Positions 1-8,619 of a stretch of 64,000 bases of DNA are shown piece by piece (positions within the stretch are counted from its first letter, which is position 1; each line of letters begins with the position of its first letter). The notes below the pieces were generated by a model, which saw nothing but the letters and a program-made list of their open reading frames with translations, was not told the DNA's origin and made no database searches. The DNA lies in assembly GCA_015067935.1 (NCBI GenBank), contig SVLL01000002.1, forward strand, positions 345 through 64,344, in the 5' to 3' direction. The stretch comes from Oscillospiraceae bacterium. GTDB taxonomy: Bacteria > Bacillota > Clostridia > Oscillospirales > Oscillospiraceae. Both the position numbers and the translations under genes were made by a program.

Positions 1-2317
1 TGTAGACCACCTGAATATTGTGATGCTGCAGCTTTTCACCCGGATTACCCTTGACCTTGTAGCCGTCAAAGACCACAACCACGCGCCATTTCCGGAAACC
101 GGCAAAGTCGCTGAGCCGGTCGCATAATTGCCGCCGGGCGTTTTCCAGATCTTCCTTGGCGACAGCTGCCAAATCCTCCCACGCGAAGATGATATTGTAG
201 CCGTCCACAATGAGATATTGCTGCTTCAGGGGCTTGATGCTCCGCTTGTCTCCGTCGTCGGTGCGGGGGCGGGGGCGGTACAGCGTAGTGGATACCTCGC
301 CGAATTCCCGGCGCATAATTTCCTCCAATTCCCGATCCTCAAGAGCAAGATTTCGTTGGATGACTTGGGGTTCCTTGGGCTGCTTCAGGCAGTTTTCAAG
401 GTGCATATAGTCCGCAATTTCATTCCATTTCACCGTAAAACCTGCACCGTGGGCGCAGAAAACAGAATCCGGAGTATTTTCCAGATCTGCCTCCGGGTCA
501 TAAGAAAGCGCGGCGATGACTGCCTCCGTATTGTGGCAGGGCTTGTAGCCGTCCAAGGTGATCTGCAGCCGTCCGGTGCCTTGGGTGTAGGCCGCCACCT
601 GCTCGGGATAATCCCCCAATTCCGATGCCGGCAGAATGCCCCGGAGAATGGACAGCTCTCCGCTGTTTTCCGGTGCGTCGAACTCGCCGCCCATAGCCCG
701 GATGTCCGTGATGGCTCTGCCGATTTGGGGCGTGGGGACGGTCAGCACGAAGCTGTACCACGGCTCAAGAAGCACCGATTTTGCCTGCATAAGACCTTGC
801 CGGATGGCTCGGTAAGTGGCCTGCCGGAAATCACCGCCCTCGGTGTGCTTTAAGTGGGCGCAACCGGCGGCAAGGGTGATTTTCATATCCGTGATGGGTG
901 CGCCGGTGAGGACACCCCGGTGGGTTTTCTCACTCAGATGCCCCATAATAAGGCGTTGATAGTTGATGTCCAGTAAGTCCGTGGAGCAAACGGTGTCGAA
1001 TACCAAGCCGGAGCCAAGGGGCAGAGGCTCCAGAATCAAATGCACCTCCGCATAGTGACGCAGAGGTTCAAAATGTCCCACGCCCTCCACAGTATTCGAA
1101 ATGGTTTCCTTGTAGAAAATCCGCCCGGTGTCCAGCGTTACATCCAGATGAAACCGTTCTTTCACAAGGCTGCGGAAGACCTCCAGCTGGACCTTGCCCA
1201 TGATTTGGATGAAAATACTGCCGTTTTCCCACACCAGCCGGAGCATAGGGTCTTCTTCCTCCAAAAGCCGCAGCTGGGGCATCACAAGGGCAGGATCGGT
1301 GCCGGACATCAGGTTCACCCGATAGGTCATCACCGGCTCCAAGGTGGGAACAGCGTCGCTCTCTTCTACGCCCAGACCTTGACCGGCATAGGTGGCGGTC
1401 AGACCGGTGACGGCGGCTAACTGTCCGGGCAAAAGCACATCGGCAGGAGTGAATTTATCACCGGAATAGAGCCGCAGCTGAATGACCTTTTCCTCTGCCT
1501 TCTCACCCTTTTGGTTTACATAACATACAGAAGACCGTACCGGCAATTTACCACCGGTGACCTTCAGCCAAGTGAGCCGATTGCCCTGCGCATCCCGGGA
1601 GATCTTGTACACCCGGGCACCGAATTCTGCGCCCCATTGGGGGCGGGGGAGATAGGTATCCAGTGTCACAAGCAGCTTGTCAATCTCCTGCAGGTGCAGT
1701 GCTGCCCCGAAAATACAGGGGAACAGCTTTCCCTGTCCGATTTGTACCCGGATATCTTCGGCAGTGATGCTGCCGGATTCCAAAAACTGCTCCAGAAGTT
1801 GTTCGTCGCACATAGCCGCGCCCTCATACAGCTTGTCCTGCTCGCCAAAATCCACGCAGCCGGGGCTCAGCTCCTTTTGCAGCTGGGCAAGAATTTTCTC
1901 CCGGTCCGTGCCGGGCAGGTCCATTTTGTTGATGAACAGCACGGTCGGAATCTGATACCGCCGCAGCAGCTGCCAAAGGGTCAGGGTATGGGCCTGCACG
2001 CCATCGGTGCCGCTGATGACCAGAATCGCGCTGTCCAGAATGGGCAGCGTCCGCTCTGCCTCCGCAGAAAAATCCACATGGCCGGGGGTGTCCACAAGGG
2101 TGATGTCCAAGCTTTCTGTACAGATGTGCGCCTGCTTGGAGAAAATGGTGATTCCCCGAGCCCGTTCAAGGGCGTGGGTGTCCAGATAGGCATCCCGATG
2201 GTCCACCCGCCCCAAGCTTCGCCGCGCACCGCTTTGATACAGCAATGCTTCCGAAAGCGTGGTCTTGCCTGCGTCCACATGTGCCAGCAGACCAAGACTG
2301 ATGTTCGGTCGTTCCGT
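1..2317 (-). CDS. EF-G/TetM-like translational GTPase fused to C-terminal NYN (YacP/Rae1-like) RNase domain; 3' end beyond window
   Basis: Manual translation (absent from the ORF track because no stop lies in the window): AHVDAGKTT, ERARGITI, DTPGH, NKMD; EGVGHFEPLRHYAEVHL and KHTEGGDFRQATYRA; in-frame YLIVDGYNIIFAW...VVVFDGYK near 60-220. Start ambiguous: ACG at 2317 after an SD-like G-run, or ATG at 2350. Confidence 0.9.
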
Positions 2318-2348
2318 AAAAATCCCCCCCTGTCGTGATGTTTTCCTC

Positions 2349-2379
2349 ATTATACCACGGCAAGGGGGGTTCGTCGATA
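2349..2379 (-). promoter_or_regulatory. sigma-A-like promoter of the GTPase-NYN gene (TCGACG-N17-TATAAT, extended -10 TG)
   Basis: Minus strand tatcgacgaaccccccttgccgtggtataat; 25/31 identical to 5152-5182. Confidence 0.6.
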
Positions 2380-2393
2380 TATTTTTCAAATTT

Positions 2394-3542
2394 TTAAACA
2401 CAGAGCCAGTTTGCTTCATGTGCTTCCTTGGCTTCCGGCGGGACCAGCTCGGCAAGCATCCGGCAGATGGCCCTTTCCGGTACGGCATCGGCTCTGCCGG
2501 CGTTGCGGCGCAGCTGCTCCGTCCATTCGGTTTCCAGATAGACGATCCGGGTGGCGGCACCGTATTGGGCGAAAAGATTCACCTGCTTGCTGCGCACCAT
2601 AGGGCTTAAATTGGTGGCGTTCCAGATGAACGGCTGCCTTGCCCGAAGAAATTCCTTTGCCTTCGCCCGGGCAAGCTCCACCACTTGGGTTTGCTTTTCT
2701 GTGGGAGAAATTCCGTATTCCTTTCGGATCTCATCCAGAGAAATCACCGGCAAATGGGGAACATTTTCCCGGATCCAAGTATCCTTGCCCGTGCCGGGCA
2801 GCCCGGAAAGGAGAATGATTTCCCCCCAACTGTCGTCATAGAGTTCCGCTTCCGGTGGGATTTCTCTGCCGGACAGATAGGCGTATCGGGTATACCGGGA
2901 AGGGAAGGGGAACGGACCTTCAAAGCAGCCGTTTTCCCTTGCAAATTCCCGGCAAAGCTGTACCTGCTCCGCCATTTGCAGCCGGCTTACGCCAATTCTG
3001 CCCAGCGCATCCGCCTCGCACAGAACGCAAAGTAGTTTCAAGGTGAACAGAGGGCAGTTTTCACCGTCCGCGGCAATGGAAAGAAGTCTGCGTTTGCCGT
3101 CGGGATGGTCAAGGGCGTGGGGCGGAAAGCTGTGATAGCGGATCAAATTGCACACAGTTTCCCGGAATTGCTGTTTTTCCGGTGTGCCGCAAAGCCCCAA
3201 TGTCTGCCACAGAAATTCCCGCGCCATTTTTGCGCCTGCCAGCGTGTGATTGGGTGAGGTCCACCGCCCATCCTCCCACCGGGTGGTGGGCACTTTGCCA
3301 ATGTCGTGGAGAAGGGCCCCAAGAAACACCGCCTGCTGTTCCTTTTCCAATAGATTTTGGAAGGCATCAAGGGTTATCAGGGTTTCACAGACCATTTTGG
3401 TATGGGTCCACACATCGCCTTCGGCGTGATAGATGGGGGCCTGCTCCGTCCGGGACATAGGGATCACGAAGGGTGACAGCACCGCTTCTATGCCGGGCCA
3501 ATCGATATCTCGTCGGATTGCCCGATTGATTAGCTGCTGCAA
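2394..3542 (-). CDS. HD-Pnk-type end-healing enzyme: N-terminal HD phosphoesterase + C-terminal P-loop polynucleotide kinase
   Basis: HAEGDVWTHT, LLHDIGK, RYH, EADALGR (HD domain); GLPGTGKDT P-loop, SLDEIR, WNATN; TTG start with SD inside the end of the ligase gene. Confidence 0.85.
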   Translation of the reverse strand: MQQLINRAIRRDIDWPGIEAVLSPFVIPMSRTEQAPIYHAEGDVWTHTKMVCETLITLDAFQNLLEKEQQAVFLGALLHDIGKVPTTRWEDGRWTSPNHTLAGAKMAREFLWQTLGLCGTPEKQQFRETVCNLIRYHSFPPHALDHPDGKRRLLSIAADGENCPLFTLKLLCVLCEADALGRIGVSRLQMAEQVQLCREFARENGCFEGPFPFPSRYTRYAYLSGREIPPEAELYDDSWGEIILLSGLPGTGKDTWIRENVPHLPVISLDEIRKEYGISPTEKQTQVVELARAKAKEFLRARQPFIWNATNLSPMVRSKQVNLFAQYGAATRIVYLETEWTEQLRRNAGRADAVPERAICRMLAELVPPEAKEAHEANWLCV

Positions 3543-3545
3543 GTC

Positions 3546-4364
3546 TTATCCCTCCTTACCGGGGAGCTTTGGCGCGTAGATTCCCTCCACCCCAATGGCC
3601 AAAGCGTTGGGCACGATGGGACGGTCCAGCCAATGGGTCTGGGAGCTGTCCACCGTTTGGGTAAAGGAGGCCCGAACATATTTCAGTCGGTCCACCACCT
3701 GACCGTTTTCCTCAATTTTGATATACAGCCCTTCCATTATGTCGGAAGGGTCGGTTTCCCGCACCTGCCGCGCGGCATCCAGCCCCAGCTGTTCGCTGGT
3801 TTTGCGCAGTGTGTCCGTCTTGTTTTCGCTGATGAACCGGGACTTGCCCAGCAGGGAAATCAGCGCGTCCTTGCTGTCGAACACGCCTTCCTTCAACACG
3901 GGAACAGACACTACAGGCAGATTCTTCAGCATTTCGTACCGACGGGCGGTGGAGAGAAAAATCTGCTCCTGCCGGTCGAAAATGTCAAACTCCAGAAAAT
4001 AGTGGGGAAGCTTGTCGTAGTACACCGTATGCTTGGCGTACATCCACTCGCCATACATAATGTAGCGAGTGCCCAGTACATCAAAAAAAGCATCCTGATG
4101 GATATTGGCCCATTGCTTCATCAGGTTATAATGCCGCTCCCGATAGCCTCCGGTGAGGTAATGCCCCCGGCTTTGCAGCAGGAGCGTGCCGTCCGAATCG
4201 AAGGAAATGGCGGTGTTGGCTCCGTCGATTTTTTCCTCTACCACCAAGTGCCTGCCCCTGATGGCAGAAAAGGGCACTTGGGACAGATCCTCATCCCCCG
4301 GCTGGAGCCGCGAGCCCTCCAGATGAGGGGTTCGGGGGTATTTCTTTAAAGTTACGGCTTCCAT
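3546..4364 (-). CDS. ATP-dependent RNA ligase (Rnl2-like adenylyltransferase family)
   Basis: KYPRTPHL; motif I EEKIDGAN; Ia LQSRG; III YGEW; IIIa FLEFDIFD; IV EGLYIK; V RLKYV; ATG 4364 with SD aaggagg. Confidence 0.9.
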   Translation of the reverse strand: MEAVTLKKYPRTPHLEGSRLQPGDEDLSQVPFSAIRGRHLVVEEKIDGANTAISFDSDGTLLLQSRGHYLTGGYRERHYNLMKQWANIHQDAFFDVLGTRYIMYGEWMYAKHTVYYDKLPHYFLEFDIFDRQEQIFLSTARRYEMLKNLPVVSVPVLKEGVFDSKDALISLLGKSRFISENKTDTLRKTSEQLGLDAARQVRETDPSDIMEGLYIKIEENGQVVDRLKYVRASFTQTVDSSQTHWLDRPIVPNALAIGVEGIYAPKLPGKEG

Positions 4365-4365
4365 T

Positions 4366-5076
4366 TTATCCCTCCTTGTGGATGGACGCAATCAAAATCA
4401 GGTGACCGTTTACACCGCTGAAATGCAGCTTTGTGCAACCGGCATCCCGGAAAAGCGCAGTTAAAATATCCTTGGTCAGCAGGTGAATGTGCTCCGGATT
4501 GTCGTCCTTTTGCGACGGCACGGACACCACCACATAATGCCTTGCCATCGTCACTGCGGCAGAAATGGCTTTGCCTACCTGGGGGATGTGCTCCAGCACC
4601 TCCAACAAGGTCACTACATCAAAGCTGTTTTCCGGAAAAGGCTGATCGCAGAGATTTGCCTGATGGGCGGTCAGCCGGCTGTAGCCCCCTGCGGAAAGCT
4701 CCCTGAGAAAAGTCACCCGTTTTTCCAGCAGGTCCAGCGAGGTGACCTGCACTTGGGGAAATTCCTCCATAAAGGGCAACAGAAACACGCCCCGTCCGCT
4801 GCCCACATCCAGCAGCGATTCAAATGCAATTGCGTGGAGAAAACCCAGCACCTGCCGCACCCGGGGCAGCTCGGTTTTGCCGGTCTTGAAGGGATAAAGC
4901 TTCTGCCCGGCGGCTTGCCCTAATGCAACGATGGCAGAAAGCTCCCCGTCGGTCAAAACCTCCAGAGGCATTTCCAGCAATTCCTGCGGTATTGCCGGCG
5001 TGCCGGTCTGCAGTGCGTGTCCCCGTAGCCAAGCGGCTGCAGGCTTTAAATCGTATCGGTCCGTCATTTCTGTCAC
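4366..5076 (-). CDS. class I SAM-dependent methyltransferase, Hen1-like motif set
   Basis: LLDVGSGRG SAM motif, FDVVTLLEVLEH, VVVSVP...NPEH; ends 1 nt before the ligase start. Confidence 0.8.
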   Translation of the reverse strand: MTEMTDRYDLKPAAAWLRGHALQTGTPAIPQELLEMPLEVLTDGELSAIVALGQAAGQKLYPFKTGKTELPRVRQVLGFLHAIAFESLLDVGSGRGVFLLPFMEEFPQVQVTSLDLLEKRVTFLRELSAGGYSRLTAHQANLCDQPFPENSFDVVTLLEVLEHIPQVGKAISAAVTMARHYVVVSVPSQKDDNPEHIHLLTKDILTALFRDAGCTKLHFSGVNGHLILIASIHKEG

Positions 5077-5129: not shown

Positions 5130-5164
5130 AAAAAAGCCGTGGTATATAAGAATTATACCACGGC
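5130..5164 (-). terminator. intrinsic terminator after the 5185-5436 gene; overlaps the methyltransferase-operon promoter
   Basis: gccgtggtata/tataccacggc 11-bp stem followed by a T-run on the minus strand. Confidence 0.7.
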
Positions 5165-5182
5165 AAGAGAATTTTGGCGATA
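5152..5182 (-). promoter_or_regulatory. sigma-A-like promoter of the RNA-repair operon (TCGCCA-N17-TATAAT, extended -10)
   Basis: Minus strand tatcgccaaaattctcttgccgtggtataat. Confidence 0.6.
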
Positions 5183-5184
5183 GC

Positions 5185-5436
5185 TTATTTTCTTTTTTGC
5201 ACGATCACGATTACCACAACAGCAACCACCATCACACCGGCCAGCGCAATGCCGATGACAGAGCCGAGATTCTCGGGTATGCTGCTGTCGGCTTCCAGCT
5301 GATTGGCAGACATTGTGGGCATGGGCGGAGCGGTGAAAGAGGGGGTGGTGGGTGCATCGGTATCGGCGGCAAATGCAGGAATGGCAAGCATCGTCAGCAA
5401 AAGCACCAAAAGCAGAAGAACAGATACTCTTTTCAT
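5185..5436 (-). CDS. small exported protein with C-terminal membrane anchor
   Basis: Signal peptide ending AFA, P/T-rich linker, hydrophobic helix, QKRK tail; SD aaaggaaa. Confidence 0.7.
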   Translation of the reverse strand: MKRVSVLLLLVLLLTMLAIPAFAADTDAPTTPSFTAPPMPTMSANQLEADSSIPENLGSVIGIALAGVMVVAVVVIVIVQKRK

Positions 5437-6346: not shown

Positions 6347-7149
6347 TTCCTGCCCTCCACAGTGAGATTATCGTTGTTTTTCGCCTTTTTCTGCTGATTC
6401 AGCCAGGTGTTCATCACCATACCGTGAGGCAACAGCTTGACGAGCCGCACCTGCATCCGGGTGAAAAAGCCGGGAACGGCATAGTCCTTTTTGGATTTAT
6501 ACAGTGCCTTCAGACCGTAGGCAACGCAGAAATCCGCGTCATAAAGCCGGTCATAATACTGCACTTCGCCTTCGTTGGTCTGGCAGGCGTGATTGAAAAA
6601 CTCCGTTTTGACCCAGCCGGGATTCATTGCCATCATCCGGATGCCCTTGCTTTTCAGCTCCCGGTTCATTGCCCGACTGTAGCTGAGCACAAAGGCCTTG
6701 GTGGCACCGTAGGTGGTGATGTAGGGAACGGGCTGAAAGGCAGAAAGGCTGTCCAGCTGCAGAATGTGGCTGGAATCGGGCATATAGGGAATGCACAGAC
6801 GGGTCATCACCACAAGTGCCTTGCAGTTTAAATCCAGCATTTTGCAATCGTCTTCGATGCTGACTTTTTCAAAATAGCCGAATTTGCCAAAGCCTGCGGC
6901 ATTGACCAGCAGCCGGATTTCCGGCTTTTCGGTTTCCAGAAGCTTTTGAAAATCTTCAAAGCTGTTTTCGTCCAGCAAATCCAGAGAAATGGGGCGCACC
7001 GGCACCGCACATTCGCTTTTCAGGGATTCCAGAGCCGCCTGCCGACGGGCAATGGCCCATATTTCATCCACCTGCACATAGTTGGTCAGCTGCAGGACAA
7101 ATTCCCGTCCCATACCGGAGCTTGCGCCGGTGACGATTGCGATTTTCAT
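6343..7149 (-). CDS. short-chain dehydrogenase/reductase
   Basis: TGASSGMG, NAAGFG, YGATK, PGWVKT. Confidence 0.9.
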   Translation of the reverse strand: MKIAIVTGASSGMGREFVLQLTNYVQVDEIWAIARRQAALESLKSECAVPVRPISLDLLDENSFEDFQKLLETEKPEIRLLVNAAGFGKFGYFEKVSIEDDCKMLDLNCKALVVMTRLCIPYMPDSSHILQLDSLSAFQPVPYITTYGATKAFVLSYSRAMNRELKSKGIRMMAMNPGWVKTEFFNHACQTNEGEVQYYDRLYDADFCVAYGLKALYKSKKDYAVPGFFTRMQVRLVKLLPHGMVMNTWLNQQKKAKNNDNLTVEGRK

Positions 7150-8459
7150 AGCATATTCCTCCTGATTTCGGCAAGCAGTGCCGCTTTTTCGTTTTCTATT
7201 TCTTCGTCCAGCACCATGCTCAGCAAATGGTTCAGCATCTTGCCGATGTCCTTGCCGCAGATGCCCAGTGCCATCAAATCGTGTCCGTTTACTGCCAGCT
7301 CCCGGAGGGACAGACAGCTGTTTTCGGCAACCAGTTCATCCACAATGCGGTGCATTTCACCAAAGGCAAATTCCTCGTCTTGTACGCCCTTGCCGCCAAT
7401 GTCTGCCTCCTGCAGCTGCAGCAGCTTGCGCAGCCTTTCCTCGCCCCAACGGCTCAGATGCCGCCGCAGGAGCTTTTTGTCCGCATCCGGGCGGTTCATG
7501 TGCCGTGAAACAAGGAATATTACCTCTTCCCGAAGCGCAGTAGGGGCTTTCAGCCGGTGGAGAATTTCCTCCGCCATTTTCGCGCTGACCTCAGCGTGAC
7601 CGTAATAATGCCCCTGCCCGTCCTCACCGAAGGACAGTGTTTCGGGCTTGCCCAGATCGTGCAGCAGTGCCGCCCAGCGCAGGGAAAGCACCGGGGGAAC
7701 GCCGGCGACCACATGGCAAATGTGCGTATATACATCATAGATATGATGCTTGTTATGTTGGGCAAAGCCCACGGTGGGGCGAAGCTCCGGAATGACCTGG
7801 GTCAGAATCGGCGCAAACCGAAGCAGGTCCTCCACGGAAACAATGGGTAAAAGCTGGCATAATTCGTCGAAAATCCGCTCTTTTGCGATATTTTCCAAAA
7901 GGGGAGCCTTGTCATACATTGCCTGCAGGGTCTTTTCTTCTGTATGCAGACCAAAGCGCACGCCAAAACGGCATCCCCGGAGAATCCGCAGGGCATCCTC
8001 TGCAAAGCGGGCATCTGCATCCCCGACTGCGCGCAGAATCTTATTGTTCAGGTCCTGCTGACCGCCAAAGGGGTCTGCCAAGCCTCGGGTGGGGGACCAG
8101 GCCATGGCATTGACCGTAAAATCCCGACGGGACAGATCCGCCTCGATATTGGTTTCAAAATTCACCCAGCCCGGGTGGCGGTTGTCCGCGTAGTCACCCT
8201 CGGTGCGGAAAGTAGTGATCTCCACCACACCGTCTTCCGTTACCACGCCCACCGTGCCGTGCTTTTCTCCGGCCAGCACCAGTGTGCGGTCGGCAAAGAT
8301 TTCCTTGATCTGCCAGGGCAGAGCGTTGGTGCACAGGTCGTAATCGTGGGGAGTAAGTCCCAGCAGAGCATCCCGGACGCAGCCGCCGACGGCATAGCAG
8401 GCAAAGTTATTCAGTTCCAGTTTTTCAAGACATTGCCTGACGGTGTCCGGTAAATACAT
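7146..8459 (-). CDS. cca: CCA-adding tRNA nucleotidyltransferase with HD domain
   Basis: VGGCVRD, DYDLCT, EITTFR, RRDFTVNA, EDALRILR, LLHDLGK; ATG 8459 with SD aggag. Confidence 0.88.
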   Translation of the reverse strand: MYLPDTVRQCLEKLELNNFACYAVGGCVRDALLGLTPHDYDLCTNALPWQIKEIFADRTLVLAGEKHGTVGVVTEDGVVEITTFRTEGDYADNRHPGWVNFETNIEADLSRRDFTVNAMAWSPTRGLADPFGGQQDLNNKILRAVGDADARFAEDALRILRGCRFGVRFGLHTEEKTLQAMYDKAPLLENIAKERIFDELCQLLPIVSVEDLLRFAPILTQVIPELRPTVGFAQHNKHHIYDVYTHICHVVAGVPPVLSLRWAALLHDLGKPETLSFGEDGQGHYYGHAEVSAKMAEEILHRLKAPTALREEVIFLVSRHMNRPDADKKLLRRHLSRWGEERLRKLLQLQEADIGGKGVQDEEFAFGEMHRIVDELVAENSCLSLRELAVNGHDLMALGICGKDIGKMLNHLLSMVLDEEIENEKAALLAEIRRNML

Positions 8460-8496
8460 ATCTGTCTCTCCTAAAAAATGTTGCGGCAAAGCAGCT

Positions 8497-8619
8497 AAGG
8501 CTTCCCCTTGAGAGGAAGCCGGCATTTGTGAGGAACGGGCAAATGACTGATGAGGTGTAAAAACAAATCTAACACCTCATCCGCCCCTTTGGGGCACCTT
8601 CTTCTCAAGGAGATGGCTT
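8497..8619. repeat. multi-hairpin REP-like palindromic element
   Basis: Outer imperfect IR aaggcttccccttgagaggaag / cttcttctcaaggagatggctt enclosing gatgaggtgt/acacctcatc and gcccc-ttt-ggggc hairpins. Confidence 0.7.

What the first reader, a model, noticed from the sequence alone, without database searches (positions are those of the whole stretch)
2394..5076. Three-gene 'heal-seal-methylate' RNA repair cassette: Hen1-like MTase + Rnl2-type ligase + HD-Pnk
Seen: three co-oriented genes 1 and 3 nt apart. The first two both end in aaggagggataa, which supplies the next gene's SD. The ligase has all nucleotidyltransferase motifs, and the third protein is an HD domain plus a P-loop kinase. Known: HD-Pnk enzymes heal 2',3'/5'-OH ends and often sit beside RNA ligases. 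In the Pnkp-Hen1 and Pnkp1-Rnl-Hen1 systems, Hen1 2'-O-methylates the repair junction so ribotoxins cannot re-cut. Inference: this MTase has an Arg before the SAM motif, ExxEH and a later His (LPR...DVGSGRG...EVLEH...NPEH), recalling Hen1's metal ligands. That suggests a repair-and-immunise system using an HD phosphoesterase, a combination I do not recognise as characterised. Caveat: ExxEH and P..H also occur in generic class I MTases.
Basis: partly seen in the sequence, partly recalled or inferred. Interest (0 to 1): 0.85.

Follow-up and report, generated by a model that had tools for sequence, protein, structure and literature searches.

The report
Methyltransferase-ligase-HD-Pnk RNA repair operon
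Three tightly packed genes (a small SAM methyltransferase, a minimal RNA ligase and the end-healing enzyme HD-Pnk) form an operon that recurs almost unchanged in hundreds of gut bacteria. It most likely mends broken RNA and marks it, as a differently built counterpart of the known Pnkp/Hen1 system, but none of its proteins has been tested at the bench.

Summary
Three co-oriented minus-strand genes lie 1 and 3 nt apart, and both junctions carry the same 12-nt AAGGAGGGATAA.

The genes encode:
- a class I SAM methyltransferase (MTase);
- a minimal RNA-ligase-fold nucleotidyltransferase (PF09414) with all motifs and no accessory domain;
- an HD-Pnk with intact HD and kinase residues.

The MTase belongs to its own family and is an integral part of the system. 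In 70 of 71 species-level loci picked by MTase similarity alone, ligase and HD-Pnk follow it on the same strand. Natural MTase-ligase fusions exist in both orders and with two different ligase types.

The MTase is not a Hen1 orthologue. It scores 22 bits against a cut-off of 340, has no Hen1 N-terminal domain, and sugar O-methyltransferases score higher. It does keep an aligned Arg, the SAM motif and the ExxEH triad, plus a later His that the Hen1 alignment does not reach, in 67 of 73 family representatives.

2'-O-methylation of the repair junction is therefore plausible but inferred.

The ligase/HD-Pnk pair is already known from Runella and Deinococcus, and the Runella cluster carries an MTase-HIT gene. 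This scan has found the same three-gene operon before in at least five other genomes.

Verdict: a new, uncharacterised variant of a known kind of system.

The parts
5152..5180 (-). Promoter-like site of the cassette (TCGCCA, 17 nt, TATAAT, with TG before the -10)
   Evidence: 10 of 12 matches. It lies in the upstream copy of the 47-nt repeat (D1).
5136..5164 (-). Terminator-like hairpin (11-bp stem plus T run) that overlaps the -10. It probably ends transcription of the upstream 83-aa gene.
4366..5076 (-). Class I SAM methyltransferase of a dedicated family. It is 236 aa from the GTG, and the likelier start is the ATG at 5067 (233 aa). It has a 68-aa N-terminal helical module followed by a Rossmann MTase fold.
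4366..4377 (-). AAGGAGGGATAA: the MTase stop codon plus the Shine-Dalgarno site for the ligase
   Evidence: D20.
3546..4364 (-). Minimal ATP-dependent RNA-ligase-fold nucleotidyltransferase (272 aa). It has motif I at K45 and motifs III, IIIa, IV and V, and no accessory domain.
3546..3557 (-). AAGGAGGGATAA: the ligase stop codon plus the Shine-Dalgarno site for HD-Pnk
   Evidence: D20.
2394..3542 (-). HD-Pnk (382 aa): an N-terminal HD phosphoesterase and a C-terminal P-loop polynucleotide-kinase-like domain
2349..2395 (-). Downstream copy of the 47-nt repeat. It is the native promoter region of the next gene (GTPase-NYN) and marks the 3' edge of the inserted cassette.
   Evidence: (D1).

Best explanation
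This is an accessory, horizontally spread three-gene operon that repairs broken RNA ends and couples the repair to a methylation.

Proposed mechanism:
1. HD-Pnk heals both ends. Its HD domain removes 2',3'-cyclic, 3'- or 2'-phosphates. Its P-loop domain phosphorylates the 5'-OH. These activities were shown for the Runella homologue and are inferred here from intact catalytic residues.
2. The minimal ligase is adenylylated on K45 and seals 3'-OH/5'-PO4 ends. This is inferred. The Runella counterpart self-adenylylates but did not seal when tested alone.
3. The MTase works with the ligase. Most probably it uses a metal bound by E159/E162/H163/H196 to methylate the 2'-OH of the 3'-terminal ribose before sealing. 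The mended junction would then resist re-cutting by transesterifying ribonucleases.

On this reading the operon is a functional analogue of Hen1 in the Pnkp/Hen1 and Pnkp1-Rnl-Hen1 systems, built from non-orthologous parts.

How sure each layer is:
- That this is a repair operon with the MTase as an integral part: about 0.8.
- That the substrate is RNA rather than DNA: about 0.75.
- That the chemistry is 3'-terminal 2'-O-methylation: about 0.45.
For: Operon anatomy:
- The genes are 1 and 3 nt apart with shared SD/stop junctions. There is one promoter-like site upstream and no terminator-like site between the three genes on their strand.

Synteny:
- In 80 species-level loci chosen only by MTase similarity (49-78% identity), 70 of the 71 with at least 2.3 kb of 3' room carry ligase plus HD-Pnk on the same strand. 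In 62 of them they follow directly.
- Distant family members at 47, 42 and 38% identity show the same order.
- The loci come from Oscillospiraceae, Lachnospiraceae and other Clostridia, and from Planctomycetota (Thermoguttaceae and Planctomycetaceae MAGs).

Fusions:
- MTase fused to the minimal ligase: P0274, P0275 and P0276. P0276 is followed by HD-Pnk.
- A true Rnl2-type ligase (three of the four with a match to the Rnl2 C-terminal domain) fused to the MTase: P0173, P0204, P0278 and P0279. P0278 is followed directly by HD-Pnk. P0279 is followed by the minimal ligase and HD-Pnk.

Catalytic residues:
- HD residues H39, H47, H79-D80, H99, H137 and D178 are at least 93% conserved across 80 homologues and present here. 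So are the kinase residues G247-K253, D270, R273, R346 and R350.
- The ligase motifs lie in invariant columns.
- The ligase model has pLDDT 91. It matches RNA ligases (NgrRnl, Pab1020-type, T4 Rnl2, REL1, Trl1) ahead of DNA ligases.

MTase features:
- hhalign against a bona fide Hen1 C-terminal domain gives probability 97.8% and E 1.2e-12. It aligns LPR with QQRL, the SAM motif, LEVLEH with IEVIEH, and SVPSK with STPNK.
- E159/E162/H163/H196 are kept in 67 of 73 family representatives at 29-75% identity.

Neighbours in related loci are other RNA-end and ADP-ribose enzymes:
- calcineurin-like phosphoesterase, 15 loci;
- NADAR-Macro, 8;
- ADP-ribosylglycohydrolase, 7;
- NMNAT-like-NADAR, 7;
- 2H phosphoesterase, 6;
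- RtcB, 5.

Literature:
- The ligase plus HD-Pnk pair with a nearby MTase-HIT and Tpt1 in Runella (PMC6097658).
- Three-protein heal-seal-methylate logic in Pnkp1-Rnl-Hen1 (PMC4411300).
Against: - No protein of this MTase family or of this ligase subfamily has been assayed.
- The MTase is not a Hen1 member. It scores 22.4 bits against a 340-bit cut-off, and it lacks the Hen1 N-terminal domain that activates the ligase.
- Its best named relatives by score are small-molecule sugar O-methyltransferases: MftM at 63.7 bits, RebM at 54 and AtmM at 46.5. Hen1 scores 42.
- Fold searches give only generic class I MTases.
- The alignment to Hen1 stops before the fourth metal ligand.
- ExxEH also occurs in UbiG-type enzymes (my own knowledge).
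- Six of 73 family members have lost the E/E/H/H set. One of them, P0164, still sits in an intact operon. That hints at a role other than, or beyond, catalysis.
- The Runella ligase did not seal standard substrates (PMC6097658).
- HD-Pnk heals DNA ends too, and it aids DNA-damage survival in Deinococcus (my own knowledge of Munir & Shuman 2017 and Schmier & Shuman 2018, which I could not read here).
- Most ligase/HD-Pnk pairs outside this clade have no MTase.
Confidence: 0.6

Rival explanations
1. The MTase is an integral part of the repair machine, but its role is not 3'-terminal 2'-O-methylation. It could be a structural activator of a ligase that cannot seal on its own, which is the role of Hen1's N-terminal domain. 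It could instead methylate something else: a base near the break, a terminal phosphate, or one of the partner proteins.
For: - The Runella ligase adenylylates itself but does not seal when alone (PMC6097658).
- Hen1 activates the Pnkp and Rnl ligases through a protein contact (PMC4411300).
- Family members that have lost the E/E/H/H residues remain in intact operons.
- The family has its own conserved 68-aa N-terminal helical module.
- The ligase is the most conserved of the three proteins. Median identity is 65%, against 57% for the MTase and 49% for HD-Pnk. That fits many contact constraints.
- Sequence and fold do not single out Hen1.
Against: - The SAM motif and the E/E/H/H set are kept in 67 of 73 representatives. 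This argues for a working, probably metal-dependent, methyltransferase in most lineages.
- The nearest named relatives methylate sugar hydroxyls.
Confidence: 0.25
2. The cassette repairs DNA strand breaks with 3'-phosphate and 5'-OH ends, as proposed for the Deinococcus ligase/HD-Pnk operon. The MTase would then act on DNA or on a cofactor.
For: - HD-Pnk homologues lie beside a ligase-family gene on Deinococcus plasmids.
- Runella HD-Pnk heals DNA as well as RNA ends, and the Deinococcus enzyme aids survival of radiation and mitomycin C (my own knowledge; those papers are not held here).
Against: - The ligase fold matches RNA ligases before DNA ligases.
- The same MTase family is fused to Rnl2-type ligases, three of the four with a match to the Rnl2 C-terminal domain.
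- Recurrent neighbours are RNA-end enzymes: RtcB, 2H phosphoesterase, Macro and NADAR.
- A 2'-OH or ribose-directed MTase has no obvious target on DNA.
Confidence: 0.1
3. The MTase is an unrelated small-molecule methyltransferase that merely lies next to a ligase/HD-Pnk pair.
For: The best-scoring named families are small-molecule O-methyltransferases. Public annotation is only 'class I SAM-dependent methyltransferase'.
Against: - 70 of 71 loci keep the triad across families and two phyla.
- The genes are translationally coupled here.
- Independent fusions to two ligase types exist.
Confidence: 0.03

Closest known systems
[quoted passage not shown]
   Same: - The same four activities are spread over co-encoded proteins: 5' kinase, 2',3' phosphatase, ATP-dependent ligase and SAM methyltransferase.
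- In Pnkp1-Rnl-Hen1 the ligase is also a separate protein.
- The MTase core aligns with the Hen1 C-terminal domain over the Arg, the SAM motif, ExxEH and the S-x-P-x-K strand.
   Different: - None of the parts is orthologous.
- The phosphatase is an HD domain. The known systems use a calcineurin-type domain (Pnkp) or a T4-Pnkp-type domain (Pnkp1).
- The ligase is a 272-aa bare nucleotidyltransferase domain.
- The MTase is 233-236 aa and lacks the roughly 250-aa Hen1 N-terminal domain that activates the ligase. It scores far below the Hen1 family cut-off.
- No biochemistry exists.
Runella slithyformis repair cluster: Tpt1, MTase-HIT, ligase, HD-Pnk (Munir & Shuman 2017; Munir et al. 2018, PMC6097658); Deinococcus ligase/HD-Pnk operon
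   Same: - The same core is present: a ligase-like gene immediately upstream of, and coupled to, HD-Pnk.
- An AdoMet methyltransferase gene lies in the same cluster.
- HD-Pnk here is 35-41% identical to HD-Pnk genes in ligase/HD-Pnk pairs of Cytophagales, Cyanobacteria and Proteobacteria. It is about 30% identical to a Deinococcus plasmid copy.
   Different: - Here the MTase is a stand-alone protein directly coupled to the ligase, with no HIT domain and no Tpt1 nearby.
- The ligase is only about 23% identical to a Cytophagales two-gene-cassette ligase.
T4 Rnl2, Naegleria/Deinococcus Rnl5 and archaeal Rnl3 RNA ligases
   Same: It has the PF09414 nucleotidyltransferase fold with all ligase motifs. 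These ligases are the best structural matches.
   Different: - It has no C-terminal (Rnl2), N-terminal OB (Rnl5) or dimerisation (Rnl3) domain.
- No solved structure matches by sequence below E 0.02.
- It carries a family-specific N-terminal KYPRTPHLEGSRLQPGDEDL segment.

Membership tests
Bacterial Hen1 (NCBIfam TIGR04074) | Scores above the curated family cut-off (340 bits) | tested here: not met
   22.4 bits, E 3.8e-5, covering only the SAM-binding core (profile positions 268-396 of 462). A true Hen1 from genome G658 scores 740 bits.
Bacterial Hen1 (NCBIfam TIGR04074) | N-terminal domain of about 250 aa that binds and activates the partner ligase | tested here: not met
   The protein has 233-236 aa. 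Only a 68-aa helical N-terminal module precedes the MTase fold.
Bacterial Hen1 (NCBIfam TIGR04074) | Class I MTase core with the Arg before motif I, the SAM motif and the ExxEH metal ligands | tested here: met
   (hhalign probability 97.8%). R72, D90-G96 and E159/E162/H163 align with the Hen1 counterparts. They are conserved in at least 69 of 73 family members.
Bacterial Hen1 (NCBIfam TIGR04074) | Fourth metal ligand: a His after strand 5 | tested here: inconclusive
   H196 (in NPEH) is kept in 68 of 73 members and sits after the S-V-P-S strand. The hhalign alignment ends before this point.
Bacterial Hen1 (NCBIfam TIGR04074) | Closest structural relatives are Hen1 MTase domains | tested here: inconclusive
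   Foldseek and VIA-align list only generic class I MTases at Z 19-22. By profile score Hen1 ranks 8th to 15th, behind RebM, AtmM and others.
Bacterial Hen1 (NCBIfam TIGR04074) | Mn2+-dependent 2'-O-methylation of the 3'-terminal ribose of RNA | not testable with these tools
   Needs an enzyme assay.
HD-Pnk (Runella / Deinococcus type) | N-terminal HD phosphoesterase domain with the H...HD...H...H...D set | tested here: met
   Pfam HD and NCBIfam HDIG. H39, H47, H79-D80, H99, H137 and D178 are present and conserved in 79-80 of 80 homologues.
HD-Pnk (Runella / Deinococcus type) | C-terminal P-loop 5'-OH polynucleotide kinase domain | tested here: met
   - AAA_33, 80.6 bits.
- Matches to T4 Pnk structures and the Pnkp kinase.
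- G247-x-P-G-x-G-K253, D270..R273 and R346/R350 are conserved.
HD-Pnk (Runella / Deinococcus type) | Encoded directly downstream of a ligase-like gene | tested here: met
   There is a 3-nt gap here. The same pairing is seen in 70 of 71 related loci and on plasmids of four phyla.
HD-Pnk (Runella / Deinococcus type) | Direct homology to the biochemically characterised Runella protein | not tested
   The Runella sequence and paper (PMC5237116) were not available. Homology was shown only to annotated relatives in ligase/HD-Pnk pairs.
Rnl2-type RNA ligase (T4 Rnl2) | Nucleotidyltransferase motifs I, III, IIIa, IV and V | tested here: met
   PF09414, 121 bits. K45, E106, F123/F126/D127, E211-K216 and K228 lie in invariant columns.
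Rnl2-type RNA ligase (T4 Rnl2) | Rnl2 C-terminal domain (PF18043), needed for nick sealing | tested here: not met
   There is no PF18043 match, and only about 40 residues follow motif V. The domain is present in three of the four Rnl2-MTase fusions (P0173, P0204, P0278).

The most novel reading that the evidence does not exclude
The small MTase is the missing partner of the HD-Pnk-associated ligases. Alone these enzymes adenylylate themselves but do not seal. On this reading the MTase both switches the ligase on and installs a protective methyl mark. The operon would then be a third, independently assembled 'heal, seal and immunise' RNA repair machine, built from an HD phosphatase, a bare ligase domain and a mini-MTase. 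It would also give the unsolved ligase/HD-Pnk family a testable substrate and mechanism.
Probability: 0.3. Interest if true: 0.7.

Novelty: new variant of a known kind. Interest (0 to 1): 0.55.

Why it matters
RNA repair coupled to 2'-O-methylation is known from only two bacterial architectures, both built around Hen1. If confirmed, this operon would show that the same logic was assembled a third time from unrelated parts. It is common in animal-gut Clostridia.

It also bears on an open question. The ligase next to HD-Pnk in Runella and Deinococcus has no known substrate and does not seal alone. A version with a dedicated, sometimes fused, methyltransferase gives a concrete hypothesis and a simple three-protein system to reconstitute.

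The neighbouring RtcB, Macro, NADAR, 2H and ADP-ribosylglycohydrolase genes in related genomes point to wider RNA-damage response islands.

Tried and rejected
- Complex prediction for ligase plus MTase gave no verdict (score 0.00). It is not evidence either way.
- The look-up of sequencing runs listed no RNA holder, only gut and faeces DNA runs. No statement on expression can be made, and read laying was not used.
- Foldseek and VIA-align of the MTase model returned only generic class I MTases. They do not separate Hen1-like from small-molecule enzymes.
- The search for related loci with the 73-sequence alignment failed for lack of a conserved stretch. The 15-sequence alignment worked.
- Papers not held:
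  - PMC5237116, the Runella HD-Pnk paper;
  - PMC5062991, Burroughs & Aravind 2016 on RNA repair systems, which may already list this gene combination;
  - PMC3039143, Hen1 active-site mapping.
- No MTase-HIT fusion appeared among the longer homologues or the 150 representatives. The link to the Runella MTase-HIT stays untested.
- PADLOC gave only weak generic matches, so this is not a listed defence system.
- A functional link to the downstream GTPase-NYN gene is rejected. That gene is a core gene of the genus (27 of 41 genomes) and is unlinked to the cassette in G013.
- L032 is the one locus with room but no ligase or HD-Pnk. There the MTase follows a SWIM-finger protein, which was uninformative.
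Full report
**1. What is in the sequence**

Three ORFs lie head to tail on the minus strand of the window.
- A 236-aa methyltransferase occupies 4366-5076. The public database holds the 233-aa form that starts at the ATG at 5067.
- A 272-aa ligase occupies 3546-4364.
- A 382-aa HD-plus-kinase protein occupies 2394-3542 and starts with TTG.

The gaps between them are 1 nt and 3 nt. The 12-mer AAGGAGGGATAA occurs exactly at both junctions (D20). Each copy supplies a stop codon and a GGAGG 6-8 nt before the next start.

A promoter-like site with an extended -10 lies upstream at 5180-5152. It overlaps a terminator-like hairpin that would end the upstream gene. There is no terminator-like site on the minus strand between the three genes.

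**2. The three proteins**

Pfam gives generic class I MTase families for the first protein, PF09414 RNA_ligase (121 bits) for the second, and HD plus AAA_33 for the third.

In an 80-sequence alignment of HD-Pnk homologues, both catalytic sets are at least 93% conserved and present here.
- HD residues: H39, H47, H79-D80, H99, H137, D178.
- Kinase residues: G247-x-P-G-x-G-K253, D270..R273, R346/R350.

The kinase part also matches T4 polynucleotide kinase structures and the Pnkp kinase.

The ligase has motif I (K45 in KIDGAN) and motifs III, IIIa, IV and V in invariant columns. No solved structure is close by sequence. Its AlphaFold model has pLDDT 91. The model matches RNA ligases first and DNA ligases only further down. 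The matched RNA ligases are Naegleria Rnl5, archaeal Rnl3, T4 Rnl2, REL1, Trl1 and T4 Rnl1.

The ligase is a bare nucleotidyltransferase domain with no Rnl2 C-terminal domain. 'Rnl2-type' is therefore right only in the broad sense.

**3. Is the methyltransferase part of the system?**

Yes. An exhaustive profile-free search found a distinct family: 87 clusters at E below 1e-30.

The family keeps these conserved positions:
- F63-K64
- R72, within LPR
- D90-x-G-S-G-R-G96
- L-E159-V-L-E162-H163
- S-V-P187-S
- D191-D-N-P-E-H196
- H225

I fetched the 80 best species-level loci using MTase similarity alone. Then I looked for the other two genes.
- Of the 71 loci with at least 2.3 kb downstream, 70 carry ligase and HD-Pnk on the same strand.
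- In 62 they follow directly. In 8 they follow after one to three inserted genes.
- One locus has the order MTase, HD-Pnk, ligase.
- One locus (L032) lacks both genes.

Family members at 47, 42 and 38% identity show the same triad. The loci come from Oscillospiraceae, Lachnospiraceae, other gut and rumen Clostridia, and rumen Planctomycetota.

Gene fusions give independent support.
- Three proteins fuse this MTase to the minimal ligase. One of them is followed by HD-Pnk.
- Four proteins fuse a true Rnl2-type ligase to this MTase; three of them also match the Rnl2 C-terminal domain.
- One of those four (P0278) is followed directly by HD-Pnk. Another (P0279) is followed by the minimal ligase and HD-Pnk.

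**4. Is it Hen1-like?**

Only at the level of motifs.
- It scores 22 bits on the Hen1 family model, whose cut-off is 340. The mycofactocin sugar O-methyltransferase MftM scores 64 bits.
- With the family profile, RebM, AtmM and other small-molecule enzymes rank above the Hen1 MTase-domain structures. Hen1 scores 42 bits at E 5e-10, although it gives the longest aligned span.
- The MTase model is excellent (pLDDT 95.6). Foldseek and VIA-align still return only generic class I MTases.
- The protein has no counterpart of Hen1's roughly 250-aa N-terminal domain. It has a family-specific 68-aa helical module instead.

I also ran a profile comparison against a bona fide Hen1 taken from a Clostridia genome, which scores 740 bits on the family model.
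- Probability was 97.8%.
- It aligns R72 with the Hen1 Arg, the SAM motif, E159/E162/H163 with the Hen1 ExxEH, and S-V-P-S-K with S-T-P-N-K.
- The alignment ends before the fourth metal ligand.

E159/E162/H163/H196 are kept together in 67 of 73 family representatives. That argues for a functional, probably metal-binding, site in the loops after strands 4 and 5, which line the substrate pocket in this fold (inference from the fold). ExxEH is also found in UbiG-type O-methyltransferases (my own knowledge), so it is not diagnostic.

Metal-dependent O-methylation of a diol, such as a terminal ribose, is thus a reasonable but unproven reading. Six family members have lost these residues, and one of them still sits in an intact operon. 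This leaves room for a structural role.

**5. Context**

The cassette is accessory.
- A true HD-Pnk was found in only 2 of 25 genomes of the genus.
- None was found in the other 400 sampled genomes of the phylum.
- The second carrier in the genus, G013, has the cassette at another locus. There an extra 201-aa gene lies between the MTase and the ligase. An HD_4 hydrolase, a NADAR protein and a gene with a faint WCX match lie downstream.

Here the cassette lies between two copies of a 47-nt repeat.
- The downstream copy is the native promoter region of the next gene, as relatives show.
- That gene is an EF-G/TetM-like GTPase fused to a YacP-type NYN domain. It is a core gene of the genus (27 of 41 genomes) and is unlinked to the cassette in G013.
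- The adjacency is therefore incidental.

In related loci the recurrent co-oriented neighbours are other RNA-end and ADP-ribose enzymes:
- calcineurin-like phosphoesterase, 15 loci
- NADAR-Macro, 8
- ADP-ribosylglycohydrolase, 7
- NMNAT-like-NADAR, 7
- a 2H phosphoesterase with two HxTx motifs, 6
- RtcB, 5

In this 79%-complete genome no RtcB was found, and the cassette ligase is the only PF09414 ligase.

**6. Comparison with what is known**

The two-gene core, a ligase-like gene followed by HD-Pnk, is published for Runella and Deinococcus. I saw it without an MTase on plasmids of Cytophagales, Pseudomonas and Deinococcus.

Munir et al. 2018 (PMC6097658) describe the Runella cluster as Tpt1, MTase-HIT, ligase and HD-Pnk. 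They report that the ligase adenylylates itself but seals none of the substrates tested.

The functional template is Pnkp/Hen1 and especially the three-protein Pnkp1-Rnl-Hen1 complex (PMC4411300). In that complex Hen1 both activates the ligase and methylates the 3' end before sealing. The two known systems already use phosphatases of different superfamilies, and an HD phosphatase would be a third.

Every part of the operon here is non-orthologous to those systems. It differs from the Runella cluster in having a stand-alone MTase that is directly coupled to the ligase and sometimes fused to it.

**7. Earlier notes of this scan**

The same three-gene operon was reported and followed up in at least five other genomes (e1-2836199, e1-5072682, e1-2188585, e1-4387209, e1-2303696). 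Those conclusions match mine, which I reached independently before reading them.

**8. Verdict**

This is a real, conserved, uncharacterised variant of a known kind of system. The repair role and the MTase's membership of the machine are well supported. The 'immunising' 2'-O-methylation is a good hypothesis that needs an enzyme assay.

Noticed in passing
window 1-2350 (minus strand; full gene at L011:151-2694): An 848-aa EF-G/TetM-like GTPase is fused at its C-terminus to a YacP/Rae1-type NYN domain. It is full length in 27 of 41 genomes of the genus, so it is a core gene. It is unlinked to the repair cassette in G013. Its annotated ATG overlaps the -10 box of its own promoter-like site, so the true start codon is unclear.
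   Followed up: partly
window 2349-2395 and 5152-5198: A 47-nt direct repeat (72% identical, with 16 nt exact) brackets the cassette. Both copies are extended -10 promoter-like sites. The downstream copy matches the native promoter region of the GTPase gene in relatives that lack the cassette. This suggests insertion with promoter duplication.
   Followed up: partly
L106:6001-8887, L108:6001-9565, L105:5001-7672: Operon variants:
- an Rnl2-type ligase fused to the MTase and followed directly by HD-Pnk;
- the same fusion followed by the minimal ligase and HD-Pnk, giving two ligases in one operon;
- an MTase-minimal ligase fusion followed by HD-Pnk.
   Followed up: partly
L050:2202-10734 and similar (L061, L034, L063, L070, L080, L092, L094): These are extended co-oriented islands around the triad. 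They hold a calcineurin-like phosphoesterase, a NADAR-Macro fusion, RtcB, an NMNAT-like-NADAR fusion, an ADP-ribosylglycohydrolase, and a Pfam-less 240-300-aa (one 405-aa) protein with two HxTx motifs (2H phosphoesterase-like).
   Followed up: partly
L002:8228-8833 (G013) and L004:8770-9375: A 201-aa protein with no Pfam match is inserted between the MTase and the ligase in the second carrier species of the genus. In some metagenomic copies a deletion shortens it and the ligase (171 and 239 aa). An HD_4 small hydrolase, a NADAR protein and a gene with a faint WCX match lie downstream.
   Followed up: no
P0164 (L015:5001-5696), P0147, P0135, P0181, P0205: These MTase family members keep the SAM motif but have lost the E/E/H/H residues. 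P0164 still lies in an intact MTase-ligase-HD-Pnk operon.
   Followed up: partly
window 7146-8525 (minus strand): A CCA-adding enzyme / tRNA nucleotidyltransferase with an HD domain lies four genes upstream of the cassette. An SDR, an MBL-fold hydrolase and an 83-aa protein lie in between. None of these four was found within the roughly 1.4-3.6 kb fetched upstream of the GTPase gene in three relatives, so the neighbourhood is probably coincidental.
   Followed up: partly
L013:582-1397: A Y_phosphatase3 (Cys-phosphatase) gene lies directly upstream of a 47%-identical MTase-ligase pair. This matches an earlier scan note of a four-gene version.
   Followed up: no
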